Assembly (NCBI GenBank): GCA_038230515.1
Contig: JBBRND010000015.1
Span: forward strand, 13,694 to 77,693
Source of the DNA: Bacteroidia bacterium
GTDB lineage: Bacteria > Bacteroidota > Bacteroidia > AKYH767-A > 2013-40CM-41-45
DNA: 64,000 nt
Direction: 5' to 3'
Position numbers and translations under genes: made by a program. Numbering within the stretch: the stretch's first letter is position 1; each line of letters begins with the position of its first letter. This document shows positions 8,017 to 60,655 of this stretch, piece after piece. The notes under the pieces are model-generated. The model saw only the letters and a list, made by a program, of their open reading frames with translations. It was not told the DNA's origin and searched no databases.

Positions 8017-8178
8017 CTTAATAGTTTTTTTAAATTTTAAATGATAAGTGATTTATGAATTAGCGCTGTAAATCTAAAAATAAATCATTTTCACTTTTAC
8101 AAATGTTGATAAATATTTTTTGATGAAACTGTGGCTATAAGCAGAAAAAGGTTTTTATCAAGCCATGGGAATACACAG

Positions 8179-8405
8179 CTATGCAGATAGGCAAAACACT
8201 TGCTTTTATCATCTGCACGGCTATGCAGGCAGGCAAAACACTTGCTTTTATCATCTGCACGGCTGTGCAGGTAGGCAAAACACTTGCTTTTATCATCTGC
8301 ACGGCTGTGCAGGCAAGCAAAACACTTGCTTTTATCGTCTGCACGGCTGTGCAGGCAAGCAAAACACTTGCTTTTATCGTCTGCACGGCTGTGCAGGCAG
8401 GCAAA
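8179..8405. repeat. Tandem array A: about 5.4 copies of a 42-bp unit (ctgtgcaggcaggcaaaacacttgcttttatcatctgcacgg). Each unit is internally near-palindromic (gtgcag...ctgcac, gcaa...ttgc).
   Basis: Direct reading gives unit boundaries at 8179, 8221, 8263, 8305, 8347 and 8389. Several overlapping ORFs are open in multiple frames, which is typical of non-coding repeats. The array sits in a divergent intergenic region. Confidence 0.9.
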
Positions 8406-14909: not shown

Positions 14910-15016
14910 ATAATAATAAAAAGTACCATTAACGAATACAGATAGGGTCGAATCTACGAGTGAAAACAGATTCGTAAATTAGGTTGGATTCGTATTCGTT
15001 GATGAAACTCTAATAA

Positions 15017-17518: not shown

Positions 17519-17917
17519 TTACGTGTTAGCAGGCCAAGGATTCTCGTGCTCTGCAGTACCCATCTTGATCTTCTTTGCAGAGATCGTGAAGCGTGTAGTC
17601 ATCGGGTTGCTGCCAACCGTGTCAATACTCTCGCCAAACTGAATGATGTACGATTCTTCGAATTCAAGCGTCTTCAAAGCAGCAGAATCACTGCGTTTGT
17701 AGAAAGTAATTTTTCCGTTTTTTACTTTGTGCGGATCAGCCATCCACTCAAGGATGCTGTTGTCTTCGGTAGCTTCAACTTCACATTGAATAGTACCACC
17801 ATAAAGAACAGAAGAAGGGCGACCTGATGCATCAGTATCTCTGCGAAGAGCGTAGTCGCAATGGAGGAGATTAATTTCATCTCCGCCATCAATGCTAAGG
17901 GTTGATTTGAAAGCCAT
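17519..17917 (-). CDS. Hcp/TssD-like tube protein (Bacteroidetes T6SS-iii type or contractile-injection tube protein).
   Basis: A 132-aa protein beginning MAFKSTLSIDGGDEINLLHCDYALRRDTDASGRPSS...GGTIQCEVEATED. Size, N-terminal pattern and layout are reminiscent of Bacteroidetes TssD. Monocistronic with its own strong terminator. Confidence 0.5.
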   Translation of the reverse strand: MAFKSTLSIDGGDEINLLHCDYALRRDTDASGRPSSVLYGGTIQCEVEATEDNSILEWMADPHKVKNGKITFYKRSDSAALKTLEFEESYIIQFGESIDTVGSNPMTTRFTISAKKIKMGTAEHENPWPANT

Positions 17918-23078: not shown

Positions 23079-24020
23079 TTATTTATTTATTGTAGGTTTA
23101 TAATCATAACGAAAAAGAAAAGGTTCCGCATCGACATTCCCTTGTGTAAGCGCTGGCTTTATATTTTCAAATATTGATTGCACAACCTTGAATTGAGATG
23201 TTTCAATTAACCCAAAACCTACTAGCATAGTATATGATCTAATTGATAAACTATCATCCATTTCATTATAGCATGGAGCATCTACATATATAAGACATCC
23301 AATAGTTTTTTCGTTTCGCTTTGCATCCCAACCGGATTTATGCTTCTTAAAGAATTCTTCTGCAAAGAATCGTAATTGAGAATCCAATGACGTATTATTG
23401 GGAGCGCGAAGTGTATAATGATCTTTATTAACCAATTTACTAATTGAAATTGCAACTAGACCATAACCTTTTGCATCAGATGAATATCTTTTGTCTAATT
23501 GGCTGTAAGCTTTAGCAACATTGCTTGAAATCTGCTTTTCGCTGGATGGACGTTTGCACTCTATATAATAATTACCATCTAAAGTTTGATACTCCAAGTC
23601 ACTTTCATTGCCGAAAACAATGTCGTATCCTCCCATTAACAATGTTGCCCCTAAAAATAGTTCAAATCCAATATCACGTGGATTATTTGTTGATTTCAGA
23701 GGATTCTCATCATCAATATTTATTGGGCCATTGATATAAGTCTTTAACCTTCCTATAAGATTTTCTGAAATGTTTGTTTTAGTTAGTCCCGAATAAATGC
23801 TAACAAGTTGATTTATCTCATAAAAAGCCTTCCCGAAATTATTATATTCTTCTGTTTCTTGTAAACTCTTATGTGTTCCGTTTTGAATGGCGGAAATGTA
23901 TCCGGCTAAGTATTTTCTATGATTATGTATTCGTGTATTAGATTCTATTCCCAAAGATTTAAGCATGGCAATAAATGAATCTAAATTAGCCAACTGGACA
24001 TTTAAATTATCAGTATACAT
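23079..24020 (-). CDS. Hypothetical protein with a PD-(D/E)xK nuclease-like core, a candidate restriction endonuclease.
   Basis: Middle region reads DIGFELFLGATLLMGGYDIVFGNESDLEYQTLDGNYYIECKRP, giving E...D...ExK with canonical spacing. It lies 75 bp downstream of the DUF262-HNH gene on the same strand, and the region is AT-rich. Confidence 0.35.
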   Translation of the reverse strand: MYTDNLNVQLANLDSFIAMLKSLGIESNTRIHNHRKYLAGYISAIQNGTHKSLQETEEYNNFGKAFYEINQLVSIYSGLTKTNISENLIGRLKTYINGPINIDDENPLKSTNNPRDIGFELFLGATLLMGGYDIVFGNESDLEYQTLDGNYYIECKRPSSEKQISSNVAKAYSQLDKRYSSDAKGYGLVAISISKLVNKDHYTLRAPNNTSLDSQLRFFAEEFFKKHKSGWDAKRNEKTIGCLIYVDAPCYNEMDDSLSIRSYTMLVGFGLIETSQFKVVQSIFENIKPALTQGNVDAEPFLFRYDYKPTINK

Positions 24021-24095
24021 TGGGACAGATCATTTTTATGAGTGTTATACCTTTATTCAACTCTCCAAAGTATCTTCTGGACTTACAGAAAACTA

Positions 24096-25259
24096 TTACC
24101 GATTTCCTTTTGCCCGATTGTGTGTCTTGCATAACATCTGACAGTTTTTAGAATCAGTAGCGCCACCTTTGCTCCATGCTGCTACATGGTCGGCATCCAT
24201 TTCTACCAGCTTATAAATCTTACCCTTGTTGGCATCATTTCCAAGGGCACAAAGCGGACAGTTTGATTCATCTTTAGTTTCAGCAGTTTTAGTTTGCGTT
24301 GAATAAACAGATTTTTTAGTTGCATCATCAAACACGCGCACTTCCAACAACTTTGTGTCCACCGAGCCGCCAAGGATGAATTCAAAAACACCCTTTCGGT
24401 TTTTGATATACGGATCACCGTAGAGCTTTTTTACTTCGGCTGATACCTTCTTAGGATCATACGCTGTGTTATGATATTCTTCATAGAGGCGACCCCATTC
24501 TAATCCGCACATTTCGCTTTCTACATCTATAAATGTGGTTGAAACCCAATCAATCACTGTGTTGAAATAGGTTTTTAATTCTTTGATGTTTTTGTCTTTG
24601 CGATGGCGGCTCATGTATTCATCAATGCCGCCTTTACTTACCCAGTCTAAGGCGCGTTCTAAAAACGCCTGCCTGTTGGCGCTGCCCTTTATATAGGCGC
24701 TCCATTTTTGGATGTTAGAATTTTGGCTGTTGCTAAACTCCTCTTTGCCGAGTGTGACAAACGGACCGGAATAAATTGAGTTGAGCAATTCCTGATGACT
24801 GAGCGGAACACCTGCAATGTTGATGGTTTTGAACCACTCTTTTATCTCGCTCTCTTCGCCTTCACATTCATAAATGAGAATTTGAGTTTTATAAATCATA
24901 GCCCTTTTATCATCCGCAATACCGTCAAAGTATTGCTCCATGCCGTTTTCATCTTTCACGGCAAATTTGTTGGTGACATAGCGCCCGAAGCTGGTGATGC
25001 GCTGTTGCCCGTCTAACACTTCAAATTTATCGTCACTCACTTTTACGAAATAGATCAAGCCCAAGGGGTAGCCCTTGAGGATAGATTCAATAACCGCTAC
25101 ATCTCTTTTGCCATCGGCATAGATATAGTTACGCTGATACTCCGGCTGTATGGTGAGTTTGCCGCTCAAGCCAAACAGCCCTTTGCCTTCCAATTCATTA
25201 TACTGAAAGCCCTCGCAAATATCTTTGACAGTGATGTTGGTTATTAGTGTTGTTTTCAT
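24096..25259 (-). CDS. DUF262 (ParB/Srx-like, DGQQR motif) N-terminal domain fused to a C-terminal HNH endonuclease. This is the GmrSD/BrxU/SspE-like architecture.
   Basis: The N-terminus has [10 protein letters not shown]...[10 protein letters not shown]. The C-terminus has CPLCALG...[32 protein letters not shown], an HNH His-Me finger with CxxC...C pairs. Its start overlaps the MTase stop by 4 nt. Confidence 0.6.
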
Positions 25260-26356
25260 TTGGTTGTTTTCTTGTGCTTGATAAGTATTCGAGTATAAAG
25301 CCTTTTGTTATTTACATACCCCCTATCTAACTTGCCTTTCCACTTAGAGTTAACTAATTCAGGTAGAAGTCCATCTTTGACATAATAATCGCTTCCAACA
25401 ATTTCAAACTGCTCAGGAGAATATTTATCAAGAAAGCTAATCGGCACACCCATCACACCATCAAAATCACTTGGGATGTATTTGACAAATGGCACTTCAA
25501 TTGCATCATAGTTATCATATTTTTCAAACGGTTTTTTAGTACCAAATTTTATTAGGTCCTCCTTGTTCATTAATGCCAACGGTTGATGACGTCTTCCATG
25601 GTCTATGTTGGTGAACCAACATGAATTTCCAAGTCTTGTATAATCCCCTACATATCCAAGTCGAGCTGCTTTCTGTCGGTCTTTTTCATCAACTTCTGTC
25701 CCTTTTGGAACAGCAAAGACCATGTCGTTAACAAAACCCGTTGCTCCCAACCAAATTTTATTTTCTTTTATCAATGGAAAAACTTCTGTGTAAGTTATAG
25801 CATTTATACTACCAATTATCACAAACTGCTTATTAGCCTCTATAACCCACCCTAAAAAATCACGAAACATTGAGAAAGGCGGATTGGTGATGATGATGTC
25901 GGCTTCATCGCGCAGCTTTTTTATTTCTTTACTATTAAAATCACCATCGCCTTTTAAATAATGCCACTCTAAGTCATCTACATCTATTTTTCCATCACCG
26001 GTGTTGTCGCGGGTGAGGGTGAAAATCTTTCCGTGTTTGGTGGTTTTCTTTTTATCGTATTGCGGAGCGCGTTCTTCAAACAGCGAGGGCTGGTAACCGC
26101 TTTTGTATTTTTTACTTTCGGCAGCATAGCTGGTGCTGATGAGTTTTTTCAAGCCAATGCGCTGAAAGTTTTGAGCAAAAAATTTAGTGAAGTTGCTCCA
26201 CTCCGGGTCATCGCAGGGCAGCAGCACCGTTTTACCACGAAACACTTTAGGGTTGTAATCCAAGTAGGCATTGATCTCTTTTTCTATATCGTGGTATTGC
26301 GTGTAGAACTCATCGTTCTTTGCCTTTTTTGCGTTGGTGAGATTACTGTTTGCCAT
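25256..26356 (-). CDS. N6-adenine DNA methyltransferase, EcoRI-methylase-like.
   Basis: The N-terminus [21 protein letters not shown] resembles the M.EcoRI family start. It has a catalytic IITNPPFS (NPPF) motif and an FxGxG-like AdoMet region. Confidence 0.65.
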
Positions 26357-26505
26357 ATTTGCTCAAAGAGAATTTAAGAACTCTGTGAAATTTTTCAGAA
26401 GCCGAAAGTCCACATTTCTCTTCTCCCCACCAAATTGAATTCTTCTCTTACAGAAACCTTACACTTTTCTTTAAACCTTCTAAATTTTAAAAATTTCTCG
26501 CAATA

Positions 26506-26950
26506 CCGTGAACTTTGCGGACTAAACAGCGAGCAATAATCTCTAAACATTGAACTTTGCGGGCTAAACCGTGAACAAGATTCTCTAAACACTGACCTTT
26601 GCGGGCTAAACCGTGAACAAGATTCTCTAAACACTGACCTTTGCGGGCTAAACCGTGAACAATTTTCTCTAAACACTGACCTTTGCGGGCTAAACCGTGA
26701 ACAAGATTCTCTAAACACTGACCTTTGCGGGCTAAACCGTGAACAAGATTCTCTAAACACTGACCTTTGCGGACTAAACCGTGAACAATTTTCTCTGAAC
26801 ACTGAACTTTGCGGACTAAACCGTGAACAATTTTCTCTGAACACTGAACTTTGCGGGCTAAACGGTGAACAAGTTTCTCTGAACGCTGAACTTTGCAGAC
26901 TAAACGGTGAACAAGTTTCTCTGAACGCTGAACTTTGCAGACTAAACAGC
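26506..26950. repeat. Tandem array B: about 10.5 copies of a 42-bp unit made of two 21-bp half-units (ctaaaccgtgaacaagattct + ctaaacactgacctttgcggg). The sequence drifts progressively along the array.
   Basis: Example units lie at 26564-26584 and 26585-26605. The array occupies almost the whole spacer between the smc stop (27182) and the MTase start (26356). The overlapping 191-aa ORF is a repeat artefact. Confidence 0.9.
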
Positions 26951-27181
26951 AATGTTACTTTTCCAAACATGAAACATGCTGCACATTACATGGTTGTTAT
27001 GAGGGTAGTGCACGAGGTTATAGCAGAAGAATTTTCCGCGTGTTTGCCCTGCTGCAAACTTTACACTTCAGACCTTAAATTAATCAGATTGATTTAAAAC
27101 GCTACCCGAGAAAAGTTCGGAGGCGTTTTATTTGCGTATTTACTTATTCGTAAATTCGAAACGATCAGCTATTCGCACAAC

Positions 27182-30100
27182 CTACGCTTCCTCCATCTCC
27201 GTCAAATCCACCGGCACCACCTGTGTAACGCCCAGCTCTGCCATCGTAATTCCGTAAATAATGTCAGTAGCAGTCATCGTGCGCTTGTTGTGAGTGATGA
27301 TGATGAACTGAGATTCCGAAGAAAATTTCTTGATGATGTTATTGAACTTGTCAATGTTCGTATCATCAAGCGGAGCATCCACCTCATCGAAGATGCAGAA
27401 CGGTGCGGGCTTGATAAGATAAATACCAAAGAGAAGCGCAATGGCAGTCAGCGTTTTTTCTCCACCGCTTAATTGAGAAATGCTCAACGGACGTTTTCCC
27501 TTTGGTTTTGCAATAATCTGAACATCGCTGTCAGTAGGGTTTGCAGGATCAAGGAGAATCAAATCACAATCATCATCCTCTGTAAACAGCGACCGGAAAA
27601 CCTTGATGAAGTTCGTGCGGATGTCCGTAAACGCCTTCATGAAATTTTCTTTCGCAGTAATTTCTATTTCTGCAATGGTTTGCAAGAGTGATTCTTTTGC
27701 TTTTGCCAGATCATCCTTTTGTTCAATAATAAAAGTGTGACGTTCTTCAATTTCGTTGTATGCCTCCACCGCCATCGGATTAATCGGTCCGTAGTTTTCA
27801 AGCTGCGAGCGTTGCTTCATCACTTTTTCGCGAAGCGTTTCTTCGGTCCAGTCAGGCGAAGGATCTTTTTCAATCAGCTCATTTATGTCAATGCTGAACT
27901 CAACGCTCAATCTTTCCTTCAAACTGTTCAGTTGCATTTTCAGTTCCATCGTTCGCTCCTTTACTTGCTGCGCAAGCTGATCGCTTTGTTCTTTGCGGTA
28001 ACGTAATTGGCGGATGGTGTTCTCCAGTTCATCAATTGAACCACGCGCTTTAAAATAAGTTGCTTCGAGAGTAGTCACTGTTTTTTCAAACTCTTCTTTA
28101 TCCGCATACAGTGCGATCAGGTGCGCGTCAAACTCCTCACTCGTGTTTATCAGTTCAGCAATCAACACCTGCACGTTTTCATACTCAGCCGTATTGGTGG
28201 TGATATTTTTTTGCAACGTTTCAAGAAGCGCGGTCTTGTAATTTAGATCGCGCACAATTGTTCCAATTTTATTCTGCTGCTGAATACACCGTATATTATG
28301 CTGATTAAATTCATTGCTCTGCTTTTCAAGTTCAGCAGATGCATCATTATACTGCGTTTGCAAAAGTGCCAGCCGCTCACTCAGCGTATTAAATTCCGAC
28401 TTCAATTGATCAAGATGTTGTTGGTGGCTCTCGCTGCTTTGCATAAACGAACCTTCCAGTGCATGCAATTGATTTTCGAGTTCACTCAAAACTTTTTTGT
28501 TGTTCTCGATTGCGGAAAATAAATGCTCCGCCTTGCTGCTGATGGAAGAAAACTCATGCGCTACTTTATTGAGTTCCTGTTGCAGTTTATTTTTTCCTAA
28601 AGCAACTCTTTCCCTGCGTTGTTTGGTTTCAGAAAGATCGCGCTGCATGCTGTCGCGAAGCGTTTTTACTTTTGAAAGAGAAACAGTAAGTTGTTCAATC
28701 TCCTTGCTCAATATTTCAAGGTGCTTTGCTCTGCCAATTCTCTTTCCGTCAAATAAACCTACAGAGCCACCGCTCAGCGCATGTTTCGTGCGGCAGTATT
28801 TTCCATTCTGAGAAATGAATACGAGTGATTTATTTTCATTCCTGAGATTCGGAGTGTTGTCCTGATCTTCCGTGACGATGTAAACATTGCGGAGAAGATA
28901 GCTGCACAACGGACGATACTTTTCTTCCACTTCAAGAATCTCCATGGCATGCACACATCCCGAAATTTTTTCGGGAGAAGAATTAGTTTCTCCTTCAAAA
29001 TTTTTCAGAATAAAAAAGTTCGCGCGCCCTTTTGAAGCTTCGCTGAGAAGATTTACCGCCTTGCTTGCTTCATCAATATCATCAATTACAAAATAGTTCA
29101 TGTACGGCTCCAGGAAAATTTCCAGTGCCGATTTGTATTCATTCCCCGCGCTCAGCACATCGCTGAACAAAGGCGCCTTCGCAGCTGGGGAAGCACTCTT
29201 TTTTATATACCGCAGCGATTCAGGATATCCTTCCAGGTTGTCAACTAAACTTTTTGTGAGCTTGTATTCATTTTCTTTTGAATCAAGTTTTCTGCCTTCG
29301 CCCATCAACTCATCAGTCAAACGTTTCAATTCGTCTTCCATGTGAATGATGCTCTCCGCTATCTGCTCTTCACTTTCAGCAAGCGATTGAAGTTCGGTTT
29401 CCTTTAACTCCTTTTCTGTTTTCGCTTCCGAAACTTTTGATGCAATCGTTTCATGCTCGGTTGACTTCAATTCAGTATCACTCTTCAAACGGTCAATCTC
29501 TTTATGCAAAGAATCTTTCCGCGCCTGTGCAACCGCATAACTTTTTTCTGATTCATGCATAGAAAGCTGAATCGCTTTCACTTCTTGCGAAACTAAATTC
29601 ACTTCACTCTTTAATGAATCATGATTCAGCCGCGCCTGATCAACTACCGTGCGCAAATCATTCAACTGTTGCTGAAGTTCAGTAAGCAGATTTTCCTCGT
29701 TGAACTTTTCTTCTTCAAGAAGTTTTATCTGATCCTGCGTTTGAACAAGATTTGTTTTATCAGAACTTAATTGCTGTGCGAGTTGTGTTTCTTTATCCTG
29801 CAGATGTTTCAGCTTTTCATTGCTGATCTTCTTATCATTCTCTTGCTGGCGGATGTGAGAGATTTTTTCGTTGAGTTGCTTTTGTGCTTCACTCAATTCT
29901 TTTTCAAGATCAAGGTTCGCAAGTTTATCTTTCTGAAGTGTTGCCTCTCCCTCTGCAACCTGCGCTTCAAGTGCAATGCGTTCTTCAATCTGTTTTGTCT
30001 CCTGAAGTTGCAATTCTTCGTATGTTACCTTGTTCGATGCAATGGTGAACAGCGCAAGTTCCTTACTCAACTCTTTGTATTGCTCTTTTAATTTATAGTA

Positions 30101-30742
30101 ACGTTCTGTTTTCTTTGCCTGGCTCTCTAATGTTTTTAAATTCTTTTCAATTTCAAAAAGAAGATCATTAACACGATTCAGATCAGCATCCGTTTCTTCA
30201 AGTTTGTTCAGCGTTTGTTTCTTGCGGATTTTATATTTCGAAATTCCTGCGGCTTCTTCAAACAAAAGTTTGATGGAATTATTTTTATCGTTCAGAATTT
30301 CATCCACCATTTTCAATTCAATGATGGCATACGAATCAGGACCGATACCCGTGTCCATAAACAAATCGGTAATGTCTTTCAAACGACACGTTACACTATT
30401 TAATAAGTATTCACTCTCGCCTGTGCGGTACAATCTTCGCGTGATGGTTACGTTCGAATATTCTGTAGGCAGAATATTTTTTGTGTTCTCAAATGTGATA
30501 CTCACCTCGGCAAGGTTCGCTGCCTTGCGCGCCTTTGTACCGTTGAAGATGATATTTTCCATCTTCTCACTGCGGAGCATTCGAGTCTTTTGTTCACCTA
30601 GCACCCAGCGCATTGCATCCACCACGTTGCTTTTTCCGCTGCCGTTCGGACCGACAACTGCGGTCACACCTTTGTCAAAATGAATGACGGTTTTCTCCGC
30701 AAAACTTTTGAATCCTTTAATCTCAAGAGAAGTTAAACGCAT
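27182..30742 (-). CDS. smc: Chromosome segregation protein SMC.
   Basis: Has the N-terminal Walker A (MRLTSLEIKGFKSF...VGPNGSGKSNV), a very long coiled coil with a hinge, and C-terminal signature and Walker B motifs (LSGGEKTLTAIALLFGIY...IFDEVDAPLD). Length is 1186 aa. Confidence 0.95.
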   Translation of the reverse strand: MRLTSLEIKGFKSFAEKTVIHFDKGVTAVVGPNGSGKSNVVDAMRWVLGEQKTRMLRSEKMENIIFNGTKARKAANLAEVSITFENTKNILPTEYSNVTITRRLYRTGESEYLLNSVTCRLKDITDLFMDTGIGPDSYAIIELKMVDEILNDKNNSIKLLFEEAAGISKYKIRKKQTLNKLEETDADLNRVNDLLFEIEKNLKTLESQAKKTERYYKLKEQYKELSKELALFTIASNKVTYEELQLQETKQIEERIALEAQVAEGEATLQKDKLANLDLEKELSEAQKQLNEKISHIRQQENDKKISNEKLKHLQDKETQLAQQLSSDKTNLVQTQDQIKLLEEEKFNEENLLTELQQQLNDLRTVVDQARLNHDSLKSEVNLVSQEVKAIQLSMHESEKSYAVAQARKDSLHKEIDRLKSDTELKSTEHETIASKVSEAKTEKELKETELQSLAESEEQIAESIIHMEDELKRLTDELMGEGRKLDSKENEYKLTKSLVDNLEGYPESLRYIKKSASPAAKAPLFSDVLSAGNEYKSALEIFLEPYMNYFVIDDIDEASKAVNLLSEASKGRANFFILKNFEGETNSSPEKISGCVHAMEILEVEEKYRPLCSYLLRNVYIVTEDQDNTPNLRNENKSLVFISQNGKYCRTKHALSGGSVGLFDGKRIGRAKHLEILSKEIEQLTVSLSKVKTLRDSMQRDLSETKQRRERVALGKNKLQQELNKVAHEFSSISSKAEHLFSAIENNKKVLSELENQLHALEGSFMQSSESHQQHLDQLKSEFNTLSERLALLQTQYNDASAELEKQSNEFNQHNIRCIQQQNKIGTIVRDLNYKTALLETLQKNITTNTAEYENVQVLIAELINTSEEFDAHLIALYADKEEFEKTVTTLEATYFKARGSIDELENTIRQLRYRKEQSDQLAQQVKERTMELKMQLNSLKERLSVEFSIDINELIEKDPSPDWTEETLREKVMKQRSQLENYGPINPMAVEAYNEIEERHTFIIEQKDDLAKAKESLLQTIAEIEITAKENFMKAFTDIRTNFIKVFRSLFTEDDDCDLILLDPANPTDSDVQIIAKPKGKRPLSISQLSGGEKTLTAIALLFGIYLIKPAPFCIFDEVDAPLDDTNIDKFNNIIKKFSSESQFIIITHNKRTMTATDIIYGITMAELGVTQVVPVDLTEMEEA

Positions 30743-50606: not shown

Positions 50607-50708
50607 TCCAGTATTTTTTCTATTGTTCGAATTGTAAATGGTTTTGAATTTACGAATGAATAAATCAGGGAATGGATTCGTAAATTCGGATACATTCGTT
50701 ATTCGTAC

Positions 50709-58384: not shown

Positions 58385-60046
58385 TTGATGCATAGTACGA
58401 ACCCCATGCGCCTTAAGTATCTTTTTGCATTGCTCATTATTTTTTCGGGAGAGGCGAGAGCGCAGGCGCCAACTATCGAGTGGCAAACTTGTCTCGGTGG
58501 CACCCAGACAGAAGGATTTTTGACCTTCATAAATGGTTTGCAACAAACAATTGATGGAGGATATATAATTGGCTCTAGAACTAATTCCAATGATGGGAAT
58601 GTCTCCGGAAATCATGGAGGAAATTGCGGAGCGGCTTGTAATGATGGATGGGTAGTAAAATTGGATAGTGGAGGGATTATCCAATGGCAAAAATGCTTAG
58701 GTGGAACAAGCGAAGATGTCTTCTCAGCAATTCATGAGACTTTTGATGGTGGCATTATTGTCGCTGGTCAAACAAATTCAAATGATGGAGATGTAAGTGG
58801 TTTGCATTCCGGAACAGGAGGTGATTTTTGGGTTTGTAAATTGGGCAACGTTGGTAATTTACAATGGCAAAAATGTCTTGGTGGTACTGATGACGACTTT
58901 GCATTATCTATTGTCTTATCTCCAGATAGTGGATATCTAATAGCTGGTCAAACAAGCTCAAATGATGGTGATGTAAGTGGAAACCCATTTCCGGGTTCTC
59001 CATTTGCATGGATAACAAGACTTAATGGCAGTGGCAACGTTATATGGCAAAAATGTTTGCCAAATACTTATAATCCAGGAAATGTTTCTGCAACGCATAC
59101 AATTGATGGAGGTTATATAGTAGCATGCACCGGTGGAGGTTTATTGTATCACAACAACTCAAAAGAATACTGTATGTCAAAAGTGGACAGCATGGGAAAT
59201 TTGCAATGGCAAAAATTTTATGGCGGAAATGATAATGATCAACCTAATTGTATCCGGCAAACTCGTGACGGAGGTTTTGTTATGGCGGGTTACACCGATT
59301 CGCACGATGGAGATGTAACTTTTAACCATCGCGATACCACTCTTGGAAGTTTACTTTGGCATGATGAATACTGGATAATAAAAACTGACAGCTCGGGTAA
59401 TTTGCAGTTTCAGAAATCATTAGGAGGTAACTGGAATGACATAGCATATTCAATTGAACAATGTCTGGATGGGGGATACATAATTTCTGGTCAAGCGATG
59501 TCAAATGATGGTGATATTAACAATGGTCTTCATGGGGGAGGAACCTTCGGTGGTCCAGGAGATTGTTGGATTGTAAAATTAGATTCTGCTTTCGGCTTGC
59601 AATGGCAGAAATGTTTTGGTGGTTTTGGCGATGATATTGGCGAAGTAATAAGTCAAACTAGTGATCAAGGGTTTATTCTTAAATCATCCTCATTCTCAAA
59701 TGATGGAGATGTGAGTGGTAATCATGGAAATGGAGACATCTGGATTGTTAAGCTTTCTCCCTCCTCTACAGGATTAACAACTATCAATAACCCAATAACA
59801 GATTTCACCGCTTGCCTAAACAGAACCAATAGAAGTTTAGATTTAAACTTTTACGCCAACGGCAACGAGCATACACAAGTACAACTCTTAGATATAACCG
59901 GCAGAGTGCTGCTCTCGCAACCCCTTGCAGTAACAGCGGGTTTTAATAAACAAGAAGTGCAGGCAGGTCAGCTTGCTGGCGGGGTGTATGTGGTAAGGTT
60001 GGTAACAGAGGGCGGGAGTGTGGTAAAGAAGTTAATTAAGAATTAG
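58385..60046 (+). CDS. Secreted SBBP (beta-propeller)-repeat protein with a T9SS C-terminal sorting domain.
   Basis: Has a signal peptide and about eight repeats of roughly 47 aa (WQKCLGGT..D....DGGYIIAGQT.SNDGDVSGNHG..D.W). The C-terminus is a typical CTD (GRVLLSQPL...AGGVYVVRLVTEGGSVVKKLIKN). Confidence 0.7.
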   Translation: MMHSTNPMRLKYLFALLIIFSGEARAQAPTIEWQTCLGGTQTEGFLTFINGLQQTIDGGYIIGSRTNSNDGNVSGNHGGNCGAACNDGWVVKLDSGGIIQWQKCLGGTSEDVFSAIHETFDGGIIVAGQTNSNDGDVSGLHSGTGGDFWVCKLGNVGNLQWQKCLGGTDDDFALSIVLSPDSGYLIAGQTSSNDGDVSGNPFPGSPFAWITRLNGSGNVIWQKCLPNTYNPGNVSATHTIDGGYIVACTGGGLLYHNNSKEYCMSKVDSMGNLQWQKFYGGNDNDQPNCIRQTRDGGFVMAGYTDSHDGDVTFNHRDTTLGSLLWHDEYWIIKTDSSGNLQFQKSLGGNWNDIAYSIEQCLDGGYIISGQAMSNDGDINNGLHGGGTFGGPGDCWIVKLDSAFGLQWQKCFGGFGDDIGEVISQTSDQGFILKSSSFSNDGDVSGNHGNGDIWIVKLSPSSTGLTTINNPITDFTACLNRTNRSLDLNFYANGNEHTQVQLLDITGRVLLSQPLAVTAGFNKQEVQAGQLAGGVYVVRLVTEGGSVVKKLIKN

Positions 60047-60245
60047 AAATGTTGGCAGCTGTTTCTAAAGCCGGGTGAGCGCGCACAGGCAAACGCGCAA
60101 CACCTGTTGGCACGAAAATCTTCCTTTTATTTGAAACCTAGCAGCGGCTGTGCGAGCTTCCTAACGGAAGGTAGGCAAAACGTCATTTTTTCTTACAACC
60201 TTCGAAATTTGCGAATTTACCTGTAAATCCCGCGATTGATTTTAG

Positions 60246-60655
60246 TTCTCCCGCCATTGTTAGCGACTAAACCACGACTGTTCCCGACCAAACCACGATT
60301 GCTACCTGCAAAACCACGACCGTTGTCGACTAAACCACGACTGTTCCCGACCAAACCACGATTGCTACCTGCAAAACCACGACCGTTGTCGACTAAACCA
60401 CGACTGTTTCCGACCAAACCACGATTGCTACCTGCAAAACCACGACCGTTGTCGACTAAACCACGACTGTTCCCGACCAAACCACGATTGCTATCTGCAA
60501 AACCACGACTGTTGTCGACTAAACCACGATTGTTCCCGACCAAACCACGATTGCTATCTGCAAAACCACGACTGTTGCCGACCAAACATGAATTGTTGGC
60601 GATAAAACATGGAATGTTGACGATCAAACAACGAGTGATTTTTATTAATCCGCAA
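60246..60655. repeat. Tandem array C: about 19 phased 21-bp units with a 63-bp super-period (ctaaaccacgactgttcccga / ccaaaccacgattgctacctg / caaaaccacgaccgttgtcga), degenerating at the 3' end.
   Basis: Direct reading gives units at 60267, 60288, 60309, 60330 and onward. All frames on both strands are open, so the ORFs 60236..60724 and 60217..60627 are repeat artefacts. Confidence 0.9.

What the first reader, a model, noticed from the sequence alone, without database searches (positions are those of the whole stretch)
26506..26950. A 445-bp tandem array phased at 21/42 bp fills the promoter region of the MTase/nuclease operon
About 21 alternating 21-bp half-units (ctaaaccgtgaacaagattct / ctaaacactgacctttgcggg) fill nearly the whole spacer between the smc stop and the MTase start. 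The shared core is ctaaacNNtgaMc, and the 21-bp phasing equals two helical turns, which puts the cores on one face of the DNA. This looks like an iteron or operator array for a DNA-binding protein, and the adjacent DUF262 domain is ParB-like. It could also be a copy-number-variable element that modulates expression of the defence operon. Units drift gradually (ctaaac to ctgaac, gcggg to gcaga) across the array, which suggests ongoing expansion and contraction.
Basis: seen in the sequence. Interest (0 to 1): 0.6.

Follow-up and report, generated by a model that had tools for sequence, protein, structure and literature searches.

The report
Heptamer-derived 42-bp minisatellite beside R-M operon
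The 440-bp tandem repeat between smc and a restriction-modification operon is real, but it looks like one of many fast-evolving intergenic minisatellites built from 7-bp and 21-bp units in this Bacteroidota lineage, not a dedicated protein-binding array.

Summary
Window 26509-26947 holds 10.5 copies of a 42-bp unit (94% match) made of two alternating 21-bp half-units. They share the core CTRAACNNTGAMC, which occurs 19 times at exact 21-bp spacing and nowhere else in the window. The array fills about 56% of the 825-bp smc-to-MTase spacer, not nearly all of it.

It is not specific to this locus in kind. The same 64 kb holds two more large intergenic arrays with unrelated sequences and periods of 42 and 21/63 bp. 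In 1.33 Mb from 82 related Bacteroidota loci, 31 of 65 tandem arrays have periods that are multiples of 7, and 12 are multiples of 21.

The core of array 2 is two heptamers of the widespread (CTGAACN)n type. The edges are degenerate and neighbouring units are the most alike, as expected from slippage or unequal recombination. The five closest relatives have smc followed directly by ispD, with no array and no MTase.

The Type II R-M cassette is mobile. Its homology to other copies starts at the ATG, so the array is not part of it.

I found no dyad symmetry, no parS or DnaA boxes, no RNA structure and no coding signal. The ParB-like or iteron idea is unsupported. A role in tuning the promoter remains open.

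The parts
26522..26941 (.). Well-conserved body of the array: 20 half-units of 21 bp (10 x 42 bp), with A-type CTAAACCGTGAACAAGATTCT alternating with B-type CTAAACACTGACCTTTGCGGG
   Evidence: TRF; core pattern at exact 21-bp steps; units listed in register
26480..26521 (.). Two degenerate in-phase units at the MTase-side edge (CTAAATTTTAAAAATTTCTCG, CAATACCGTGAACTTTGCGGA)
   Evidence: Register listing; the repeat finder family D2 reaches 26456 at 79%
26942..26983 (.). Two degenerate in-phase units at the smc-side edge (CTAAACAGCAATGTTACTTTT, CCAAACATGAAACATGCTGCA)
   Evidence: Register listing
26357..26479 (-). Unique spacer between the array and the MTase ATG, the presumed promoter and 5' UTR. 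It holds a Bacteroidota -7-like box TCAATTTG (26431-26438, - strand) that overlaps the GAATTC site at 26437-26442. The promoter is inferred, not mapped.
   Evidence: Motif scan; GAATTC positions; no significant RNA structure (z -0.75)
27096..27129 (-). Terminator-like hairpin followed by a U-run, 53 nt after the smc stop. It probably ends the smc transcript before the array.
   Evidence: RNA fold of 27085-27181(-): hairpin AAAACGCC...GCGUUUU, z -2.0
25256..26356 (-). EcoRI-family N6-adenine methyltransferase, the first gene of the mobile Type II R-M pair
   Evidence: Pfam PF13651 2e-124; PADLOC MTase_II 1e-94; homology to other cassettes starts at the ATG
24096..25259 (-). GmrSD_N (DUF262) + HNH nuclease, the second gene. 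Its start overlaps the MTase stop by 4 bp.
   Evidence: Pfam; PADLOC REase_II 2e-84 over the full length
27182..30742 (-). smc, the last gene of the block that is syntenic with relatives. Synteny ends at its stop codon.
   Evidence: Pfam; tblastx against L123 and L124; gene lists of five relatives
8174..8405 (.). Sister array 1: 42 bp x 5.5 with an unrelated unit that carries two hairpins. It lies between divergent genes of unknown function.
   Evidence: TRF; sequence; fold z -6.2; no similarity to array 2 beyond chance
60259..60636 (.). Sister array 3: 18 units of 21 bp in a 63-bp super-unit, each unit with the core AAACCACGA. It lies between a gene for a T9SS-sorted protein and an ABC permease gene.
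   Evidence: TRF

Best explanation
Array 2 is a hypermutable intergenic minisatellite with no dedicated binding protein. It most likely grew from a short heptamer tract of the common (CTGAACN)n type. A 21-bp super-unit of two heptamers plus a third, unrelated heptamer formed first, then a 42-bp super-unit. The array was amplified and is continually reshuffled by replication slippage and unequal recombination between neighbouring units, while its outermost units decay. It belongs to a population of such arrays in this uncultured Bacteroidota lineage, where repeat periods are strongly quantised in multiples of 7 bp and especially 21 bp. It sits in the dispensable DNA between the smc terminator and the promoter of a horizontally acquired Type II R-M gene pair, at a lineage-specific synteny break. 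Because 21 bp is two helical turns, the array is predicted to be coherently curved. That follows automatically from the period and is not evidence of design. Any effect on R-M expression is a side effect that selection could exploit. Shown here: the anatomy, the period statistics, the absence from relatives, and the absence of operator, RNA and coding signals. Inferred: the slippage mechanism, the heptamer origin and the curvature.
For: (1) Three large arrays with periods of 42, 42 and 21/63 bp lie in 64 kb, plus small 7-, 14- and 21-bp arrays. Their sequences and flanks are unrelated.
(2) In 1.33 Mb from 82 related loci, 31 of 65 arrays have periods that are multiples of 7 (p 1e-9) and 12 of 65 are multiples of 21 (p 4e-5). 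No other modulus is enriched. Among multiples of 7 at or above 21 bp there are nine of 21, two of 42 and one of 63, against one of 28.
(3) Array 2 has 7-bp sub-periodicity: self-match is 0.37-0.49 at lags 7, 14, 21, 28 and 35 against about 0.2 background. Its right-hand B units read CTGAACA CTGAACT TTGCGGA.
(4) A scan meant for the core instead hit more than 120 (CTGAACN)n heptamer tracts in many phyla, several with a 21-bp 'H H x' super-unit. The only 'homologues' of the ORF across the array are singleton translations of such repeats, for example CSVFSVQ, which I back-translated by hand as (TGTTCAG)3, and one from a mosquito genome.
(5) Blocks of identical neighbours, a variant gradient and degenerate edges are present.
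(6) The five closest relatives (SMC 84-86% identical) have smc directly followed by convergent ispD, a gap of 1-283 bp, with no array and no MTase.
(7) Close relatives carry different heptamer arrays or none at one orthologous spot: (GGTAGTA)8.6 in L220, (GTTGGTA)3 plus others in L124, GTAATTA-type in L123 and none in L219.
(8) Cassette homology starts at the MTase ATG and ends at the nuclease stop.
(9) Published background: heptanucleotide repeats are the commonest long simple-sequence-repeat class in most prokaryotic genomes (Mrazek 2007, as summarised in PMC4679880), and Bacteroidota have a high short-tandem-repeat density (PMC12699852).
Against: The two half-units are identical at 11 of 13 core positions and at 0 of 8 tail positions (Fisher p 2e-4). 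That split is sharper than uniform neutral divergence of a duplicated 21-mer would give. The heptamer-dimer origin explains it only partly.

Five arrays from three genomes end 139-157 bp upstream of a start codon.

An unrelated 41-bp x 5.3 array sits 143 bp upstream of an 84%-identical copy of the same R-M cassette in a different genomic context.

The preference for 21, 42 and 63 bp over 28, 35 and 49 bp is not explained by heptamer slippage alone.

Copy-number variation at this locus itself could not be observed.
Confidence: 0.6

Rival explanations
1. The array is a selected architectural cis-element. Helically phased (21n-bp) repeats placed about 145 bp upstream of a start codon would form curved or wrapped DNA, or a platform for a nucleoid-associated protein. 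This would insulate the R-M promoter from smc read-through or set its strength, with copy number as a tunable and heritable dial.
For: Five arrays end 139-157 bp upstream of an ATG. Two unrelated arrays of 41 and 42 bp period lie at the same distance (143-144 bp) upstream of orthologous R-M cassettes in different contexts. Periods of 21, 42 and 63 bp are favoured over other multiples of 7. The wedge model predicts strong compaction (end-to-end/contour 0.27-0.60, against 0.86-0.92 for random genomic segments), and the compaction is lost if the period is changed by 3-4 bp. Different heptamer arrays recur at one orthologous divergent-promoter spot in relatives.
Against: Real units are not consistently more curved than dinucleotide-shuffled units of the same period (fractions 0.07, 0.14, 0.013, 0.29, 0.71, 0.46 and 0.095). 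The 41-bp L205 array is predicted to be nearly straight (0.80). Two of the three L138 arrays lie between convergent genes, where there is no promoter. Putative -7 boxes lie at variable distances from the array edge. Five other contexts of the same cassette have no upstream array within the sequence available. The wedge parameters were recalled from memory, and no promoter has been mapped.
Confidence: 0.2
2. One reading: the array is an iteron, operator or centromere-like set of about 21 sites for a sequence-specific DNA-binding protein, possibly the adjacent ParB-like DUF262-HNH protein.
For: The 13-bp core is shared by both half-units while their tails are unrelated (11/13 vs 0/8). The strict 21-bp spacing puts the cores on one face of the helix. 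Tandem direct repeats of about 20 or 43 bp are typical of plasmid iterons and of the F-plasmid sopC centromere (my own knowledge).
Against: No core site exists elsewhere in 64 kb, even with one mismatch. There is no dyad symmetry. No parS-like or DnaA-box sites lie near the array. No rep, par, C-protein or HTH gene is adjacent. Within a unit type the core varies as much as the tail. The DUF262-HNH protein is a full-length match to a Type II REase profile. In ParB, sequence recognition lies in the HTH domain, not in the ParB/Srx-like domain that DUF262 resembles (established knowledge). The cassette occurs in at least six other contexts without this array. The array has no match in plasmids, phages or viral contigs. 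The two sister arrays lack any DUF262 neighbour.
Confidence: 0.05
3. The copy number, or even the smc|R-M junction, is an assembly artefact. The array coincides with a synteny break, and short-read contigs stop at both of its edges.
For: The Logan contigs L121 and L122 end 31 and about 85 bp into the array. Synteny with all five relatives ends at the smc stop.
Against: The two edges carry different unit variants that are linked by a stepwise gradient across the array. The unit family occurs nowhere else in the window or in 218 fetched loci, so a chimeric join would need a second, unseen array of the same family. The longest exact internal repeat is only 92 bp.
Confidence: 0.05
4. The array is expressed, either as the 191-aa repeat protein (ORF 26395-26970, - strand) or as a structured or CRISPR-like RNA.
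For: An ATG-initiated ORF spans the array, and the period is a multiple of 3.
Against: The ORF has no Pfam family. Nearly every nucleotide variant between units changes the amino acid: L/P, S/R, A/V/M, T/N/S, P/R. The HMMER hits are singleton, repeat-driven ORFs from unrelated sources, including a mosquito genome. A stop-free frame in a 42-bp unit is expected about half the time by chance. There is no Rfam hit even at E<=1. The RNA folds no better than shuffles on either strand (z -0.75 and +2.2). There are no unique spacers and no cas genes.
Confidence: 0.03

Closest known systems
Long simple sequence repeats of heptanucleotides in prokaryotes (Mrazek et al. 2007, as summarised in PMC4679880)
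   Same: It is intergenic and slippage-prone. It has a 7-bp sub-period, and its core equals two CTGAACN heptamers. The lineage shows a strong excess of periods of 7n bp.
   Different: The repeating unit is now 42 bp, a higher-order repeat of 2 x 21 bp, with one heptamer in three unrelated to the others. At about 440 bp the array is far longer than typical heptamer tracts.
TAACTGA heptamer direct repeats of Beggiatoaceae, Cyanobacteria and some Bacteroidetes (MacGregor 2015, PMC4679880)
   Same: Heptamer-based intergenic arrays upstream of genes. They are reported to reach 43 copies in some Bacteroidetes, and close relatives lack them at the same locus.
   Different: Those repeats share one sequence genome-wide and mostly lie a few nucleotides upstream of start codons, which suggested translational control. 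Here each array has its own sequence and ends about 145 bp upstream.
VNTR or minisatellite loci of bacteria, as used for MLVA typing (my own knowledge)
   Same: Head-to-tail units of tens of bp, neighbour-unit homogenisation, degenerate edges, and breaks in short-read assemblies.
   Different: Copy-number polymorphism has not been shown for this locus. The quantisation of periods at 21n bp is not a described property of VNTRs.
F-plasmid sopC centromere (12 x 43 bp) and plasmid iterons (17-22 bp) (my own knowledge)
   Same: Similar unit length and copy number, with direct repeats in helical phase.
   Different: There is no inverted repeat inside the unit, no adjacent partition or Rep gene, no AT-rich unwinding element or DnaA boxes, and the location is chromosomal next to unrelated genes.
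Heptamer repeats upstream of the H. influenzae hmw1A/hmw2A promoters, which grade expression by copy number (my own knowledge)
   Same: Tandem repeats upstream of a promoter whose number could tune transcription without switching it off.
   Different: The unit there is 7 bp and the effect has been shown experimentally. Here the unit is 42 bp and no expression data exist.
Tandem repeats of Borg elements (PMC9879509; known here only from the abstract shown)
   Same: The abstract describes them as recently formed, rapidly evolving, independently arising arrays that are absent from related genomes.
   Different: Borg elements are archaeal extrachromosomal elements, and many of their repeats lie within genes and create disordered protein regions (from the abstract). 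The array here lies in a bacterial chromosome, is imperfect (94% unit match), and lies between genes.

Membership tests
Bacterial minisatellite / VNTR | Head-to-tail copies of a unit of 10 bp or more, at high identity and without unique spacers | tested here: met
   42 bp x 10.5, 94% match, 0% indels
Bacterial minisatellite / VNTR | Signs of slippage or unequal exchange: neighbouring units most alike, degenerate edges | tested here: met
   Runs of identical neighbours, a variant gradient and decayed in-phase units at both ends
Bacterial minisatellite / VNTR | Copy number differs between strains | not testable with these tools
   Only one genome of this organism is available. At another locus, relatives differ in heptamer copy number and sequence.
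Heptanucleotide long SSR | Repeat unit of 7 nt | tested here: inconclusive
   The present unit is 42 bp. A 7-bp sub-period is detectable (lags 7-35) and the core equals two CTGAACN heptamers. The array is derived from such a repeat but is not a member.
Plasmid or replicon iterons | Adjacent Rep initiator gene, AT-rich unwinding element and DnaA boxes | tested here: not met
   The neighbours are SMC, an MTase and a nuclease. No DnaA box lies between 14671 and 28098. No plasmid match.
Partition centromere (parS, sopC or parC type) | Adjacent parAB/parMR genes, and a palindromic site or inverted repeat in each unit | tested here: not met
   No par genes among the neighbouring genes scanned (24096-30742). 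No parS-like site with 3 or fewer mismatches in or next to the array. No inverted repeat inside the array.
C-protein-controlled R-M operator (C-box) | Small HTH controller gene and palindromic C-boxes upstream of the R-M genes | tested here: not met
   Apart from the ends of two ORFs that lie mostly inside the MTase gene (26033-26377, 26334-26438) and the repeat-spanning ORF 26395-26970, the spacer holds only ORFs of 34-47 aa that lie in or next to the repeat. No dyad symmetry.
Phase-variable SSR contingency locus of an R-M system (phasevarion) | Repeat inside the ORF, or between the promoter hexamers, so that unit changes switch expression on and off | tested here: not met
   The array ends 144 bp upstream of the ATG and its unit is 42 bp. 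The promoter itself has not been mapped.
CRISPR array | Repeats separated by unique spacers, with cas genes or a leader | tested here: not met
   Both 21-bp half-units are themselves repeated. No Rfam hit. No cas domains in the neighbours.
Type II R-M system (context genes) | An MTase plus a cognate nuclease in one operon | tested here: met
   PADLOC MTase_II 1e-94 and REase_II 2e-84. The pair is conserved as a unit in at least 7 contexts. Specificity was not tested. GAATTC is under-represented, 11 observed vs 32.6 expected.

The most novel reading that the evidence does not exclude
In this Bacteroidota clade, tandem arrays with periods locked to two helical turns (21, 42 and 63 bp) would be a selected, sequence-independent architectural element placed about 145 bp upstream of start codons. 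They would arise repeatedly and independently, including twice upstream of the same mobile Type II R-M cassette. They would act as curved DNA or insulator modules whose copy number heritably tunes the expression of newly acquired genes.
Probability: 0.12. Interest if true: 0.6.

Novelty: new member of a known kind. Interest (0 to 1): 0.3.

Why it matters
As a single locus it matters little: it is a minisatellite next to a restriction-modification operon. Three broader points are worth keeping. First, repeat periods in this lineage are quantised at 7 bp and especially 21 bp. This hints at an interaction between the 7-nt slippage unit and the 10.5-bp helical repeat that has not been explained. 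Second, arrays of this kind break short-read assemblies exactly at their edges, so they are systematically missing from metagenome-assembled genomes and their abundance is underestimated. Third, if copy number does tune the promoter of a freshly acquired R-M cassette, this would be a simple, mutable control for a toxic gene pair that lacks a controller protein.

Tried and rejected
(1) I scanned genome contigs with the degenerate two-core pattern to find the source genome and sister arrays. It returned only (CTGAACN)n heptamer tracts from many phyla, because the core is itself two heptamers.

(2) A shared motif among the three window arrays (AAAC..): best cyclic matches of 12/21 are reached by 21-46% of shuffles. 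Rejected.

(3) Array plus flanks as a mobile element: the flanks of the different arrays show no significant similarity. Rejected.

(4) Selection for intrinsic curvature: compaction follows from the period. Real units are not consistently more curved than dinucleotide-shuffled units. Not supported. The wedge parameters were recalled from memory.

(5) RNA element: no Rfam hit at gathering threshold or at E<=1, and no fold signal for arrays 2 and 3.

(6) Coding repeat protein: no Pfam family, and only repeat-driven singleton hits.

(7) parS or an SMC-loading site, suggested by the resemblance of CCGTGAACA to a parS half-site: no parS-like site with 3 or fewer mismatches in or next to the array, and the window-wide count is at chance level.

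(8) DnaA boxes or a replication origin: none nearby.

(9) Similar DNA in plasmids, phages, viral contigs or the 218 fetched loci: none except contigs of the same genome.

(10) A candidate regulator among the neighbouring proteins of unknown function: no family hits in Pfam at E<=1 or in NCBIfam.

(11) The array as part of the R-M cassette: homology starts at the ATG, and five other contexts lack an upstream array.

(12) Literature searches for 21-bp or helically phased arrays in Bacteroidota, or for arrays upstream of R-M systems, found nothing on point.

Full report
**Observation.** The sequence at 26480-26983 is a tandem array. TRF reports 26509-26947 with period 42, 10.5 copies, 94% matches and no indels. 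Allowing one mismatch adds no site anywhere else in the 64 kb. In 21-bp register, A-type units (CTAAACCGTGAACAAGATTCT) alternate with B-type units (CTAAACACTGACCTTTGCGGG). The variants come in blocks of neighbours and form a gradient from the MTase side (ctaaac, gcggg, aagattct) to the smc side (ctgaac, gcaga, aagtttct). Two degenerate in-phase units flank each end. The well-kept part covers 462 of the 825 bp between the smc stop and the MTase ATG, leaving 144 bp and 219 bp of unique DNA, so it does not fill nearly the whole spacer. The gene assignments are correct: SMC, an EcoRI-family MTase and a GmrSD_N(DUF262)+HNH protein, all on the minus strand.

**Is it an artefact?** A Logan short-read assembly of the same organism reproduces both flanks and then stops 31 and about 85 bp into the array. 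The edges are therefore independently confirmed, but the copy number is not. The two edges carry different variants joined by a stepwise gradient. The unit family occurs nowhere else in the window or in 218 fetched loci. The longest exact internal repeat is 92 bp. A chimeric join is unlikely.

**The locus is one of several.** The same window contains two more large intergenic arrays. One is at 8174-8405 (42 bp x 5.5). The other is at 60259-60636 (18 units of 21 bp in a 63-bp super-unit, core AAACCACGA). They lie next to unrelated genes: proteins of unknown function for the first, and a T9SS-sorted protein and an ABC permease for the second. The three arrays are no more alike than shuffled units, and their flanks are unrelated. 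Array 1 is made of hairpins (z -6.2), whereas arrays 2 and 3 have no RNA structure on either strand. What they share is the period: 42, 42 and 63 bp.

**Lineage-wide period quantisation.** The organism is an uncultured Bacteroidota. Its SMC is found at 100% identity only in one NCBI contig and the Logan run, and the nearest relatives are 84-86% identical. I fetched 82 SMC-bearing loci of relatives, 1.33 Mb in total, and ran TRF on them.
- 31 of 65 arrays have periods that are multiples of 7 (16% expected, p 1e-9).
- 12 of 65 are multiples of 21 (p 4e-5).
- Multiples of 5, 6, 8, 9, 10, 11 and 12 are not enriched.
- Among multiples of 7 at or above 21 bp there are nine of 21, two of 42 and one of 63, against a single 28.
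- One distant relative (L138) has three arrays of 42, 63 and 42 bp in 15.5 kb.

The uniform null is crude, but the other moduli serve as internal controls. Short-read assemblies cannot span long arrays, so the scarcity of arrays over 200 bp in these loci is biased.

**Heptamer ancestry.** Array 2 has a 7-bp sub-period. Self-match is 0.37, 0.42, 0.49, 0.42 and 0.36 at lags 7-35, against about 0.2 background. The smc-side B units read CTGAACA CTGAACT TTGCGGA, which is two heptamers plus a third, unrelated one. My one genome-collection scan with the degenerate core hit only (CTGAACN)n heptamer tracts. There were more than 120, in Acidobacteriota, Planctomycetota, Verrucomicrobiota, Bacteroidota and other phyla, several with a 21-bp 'H H x' super-unit. 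The scan was biased towards that architecture, so it shows only that the seed is common. A full HMMER search with the 191-aa ORF across the array found only singleton ORFs that translate such repeats. Examples are CSVFSVQ, which I back-translated by hand as (TGTTCAG)3, 14-aa periods equal to 42 bp, and one from Culex. Published background agrees: heptanucleotides are the most abundant long simple-sequence-repeat class in most prokaryotic genomes, and polymerase slippage has been proposed as the cause (Mrazek 2007 as summarised in PMC4679880). Bacteroidota have a high short-tandem-repeat density (PMC12699852).

**Age and turnover.** Synteny with relatives runs from greA through the SusC-like gene to smc and stops at the smc stop codon. 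All five closest relatives have convergent ispD 1-283 bp after smc, with no array and no MTase. The array and the R-M pair are therefore younger than that split. At another orthologous intergenic spot (455-aa gene / SdiA-regulated-domain gene), four relatives carry four different states:
- L220 has (GGTAGTA)8.6.
- L124 has (GTTGGTA)3 plus AATAGAC and AAGAAAG runs.
- L123 has GTAATTA-type repeats.
- L219 has nothing.

The flanks of L124 and L220 are nearly identical. This is direct evidence that arrays of this kind are hypervariable, though at another locus.

**Relation to the R-M cassette.** PADLOC calls the pair MTase_II (1e-94) and REase_II (2e-84, full length). The pair occurs in at least seven unrelated contexts, next to IS3-type transposases, AbiGi, a LytTR gene and another MTase. 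DNA and protein homology to the window starts within 4 bp of the MTase ATG and ends at the nuclease stop. The array and the 144-bp spacer are thus not part of the conserved unit. Five contexts show no upstream array within the sequence available. One (L205-207, MTase 84% identical) has an unrelated 41-bp x 5.3 array ending 143 bp upstream of the ATG. That coincidence, together with five arrays ending 139-157 bp from an ATG, is the main observation the neutral reading does not explain. Against a promoter role, two L138 arrays lie between convergent genes, and -7-like boxes lie at variable distances from the array edges.

**Tests of the operator/iteron idea.**
- The half-units are identical at 11 of 13 core positions and 0 of 8 tail positions (p 2e-4). 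This favours a constrained core or a heptamer-dimer origin.
- Within a unit type, however, the core varies as often as the tail (5/26 vs 4/16, p 0.71).
- There is no dyad symmetry.
- There is no parS-like site and no DnaA box nearby.
- There is no rep, par, C-protein or HTH gene.
- There is no match in plasmids, phages or viral contigs.
- DUF262 resembles the ParB/Srx nucleotide-binding domain, not the HTH domain that reads parS (established knowledge), and here it belongs to a restriction enzyme.

**Physical consequence.** A Bolshoy-Trifonov wedge model, with parameters recalled from memory, predicts that all three arrays are strongly compacted. End-to-end/contour is 0.27-0.60 against 0.86-0.92 for random genomic segments, which places them in the lowest 1%. 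Altering the period by 3-4 bp straightens them to above 0.9. Dinucleotide-shuffled units at the same period are often as curved. Curvature is thus a consequence of the 21n-bp period and is not evidence of selection on the units.

**Verdict.** The array is a real, lineage-specific, heptamer-derived 42-bp minisatellite in the dispensable DNA between the smc terminator (hairpin at 27096-27129) and the presumed promoter of an acquired Type II R-M pair. The most likely mechanism is replication slippage and unequal exchange (confidence 0.6). A selected architectural or regulatory role is possible (0.2). The specific iteron or ParB-like reading is unlikely (0.05). It is a new member of a known kind. 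The 21-bp quantisation and the recurring distance of about 145 bp are worth a genome-wide test in long-read assemblies.

Noticed in passing
window 8174-8405: A second large intergenic array, 42 bp x 5.5 at 95% match. Each unit holds two hairpins (CTGCAC-GGCT-GTGCAG and a terminator-like GCAAG-CAAAACA-CTTGC followed by TTTTAT); RNA fold z -6.2. A single-copy relative of part of the unit (CGGCTGTGC...GGCAAAAC) lies at about 60140-60185, downstream of another gene.
   Followed up: partly
window 60259-60636: A third array: 18 units of 21 bp in a 63-bp super-unit, each with AAACCACGA. It is bracketed by imperfect 21-bp direct repeats (GATTTTAGTTCTCCCGCCATT and GATTTTTATTAATCCGCAATT). It splits an ABC-transporter gene cluster between a gene for a T9SS-sorted protein and the permease gene.
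   Followed up: partly
L001-L120 (genome contigs): (CTGAACN)n heptamer tracts occur in more than 120 genomes of many phyla (Acidobacteriota, Planctomycetota, Verrucomicrobiota, Bacteroidota, Proteobacteria and others). Several show 21-bp 'two heptamers plus a variant' super-units.
   Followed up: partly
L205 5674-5892 (also L206 167-385 and L207 148-366): An unrelated 41-bp x 5.3 array, whose unit contains the palindrome CTACAccTGTAG, ends 143 bp upstream of an 84%-identical copy of the same MTase+nuclease cassette in a different genomic context. It is identical in three metagenome samples.
   Followed up: partly
L123 18070-18129; L124 18036-18119; L220 17796-17862; L219 8897-9115: One orthologous divergent intergenic spot carries different heptamer arrays in three close relatives and none in a fourth. 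The L220 contig ends in its array.
   Followed up: partly
window 26437-26442 and the whole window: GAATTC is under-represented (11 sites vs 32.6 expected; every shuffle has at least as many). One site overlaps the -7-like box upstream of the EcoRI-family MTase. This could mean self-methylation of its own promoter.
   Followed up: no
window 24095-26360 vs L205, L208, L209, L210, L211 and L216: Homology between copies of the MTase+DUF262-HNH cassette begins within 4 bp of the MTase ATG and ends at the nuclease stop. The unit that is conserved is the two ORFs only, with no shared regulatory DNA.
   Followed up: yes
window 23079-24020 (-): A 313-aa protein with no family hit and low GC (0.33-0.35) lies directly downstream of the nuclease. 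By eye it has a PD-(D/E)xK-like motif (D...ECK). It may be another nuclease of a small defence island.
   Followed up: no
window 27146-27178, 50676-50708 and 14969-14993; L123 19055-19090: A short dispersed motif (GATTCGTAAATTCG...) recurs just downstream of stop codons of unrelated genes (smc, gyrA and another) and also in a relative.
   Followed up: no
window 27182 (the smc stop): Synteny with all five closest relatives (greA...SusC-like...smc) ends exactly here. The relatives continue with ispD-queA-truB, none of which is in the window.
   Followed up: yes
L138 259-369, 9053-9245 and 14394-14487: A distant relative (SMC 53% identical) has three arrays of 42, 63 and 42 bp in 15.5 kb. Two of them lie between convergent genes.
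   Followed up: partly
window 17519-17917 (-) and 58553-59718: There is an isolated Hcp/TssD (T6SS) gene. Separately, the 553-aa T9SS-sorted protein contains about 190-nt internal coding repeats.
   Followed up: no
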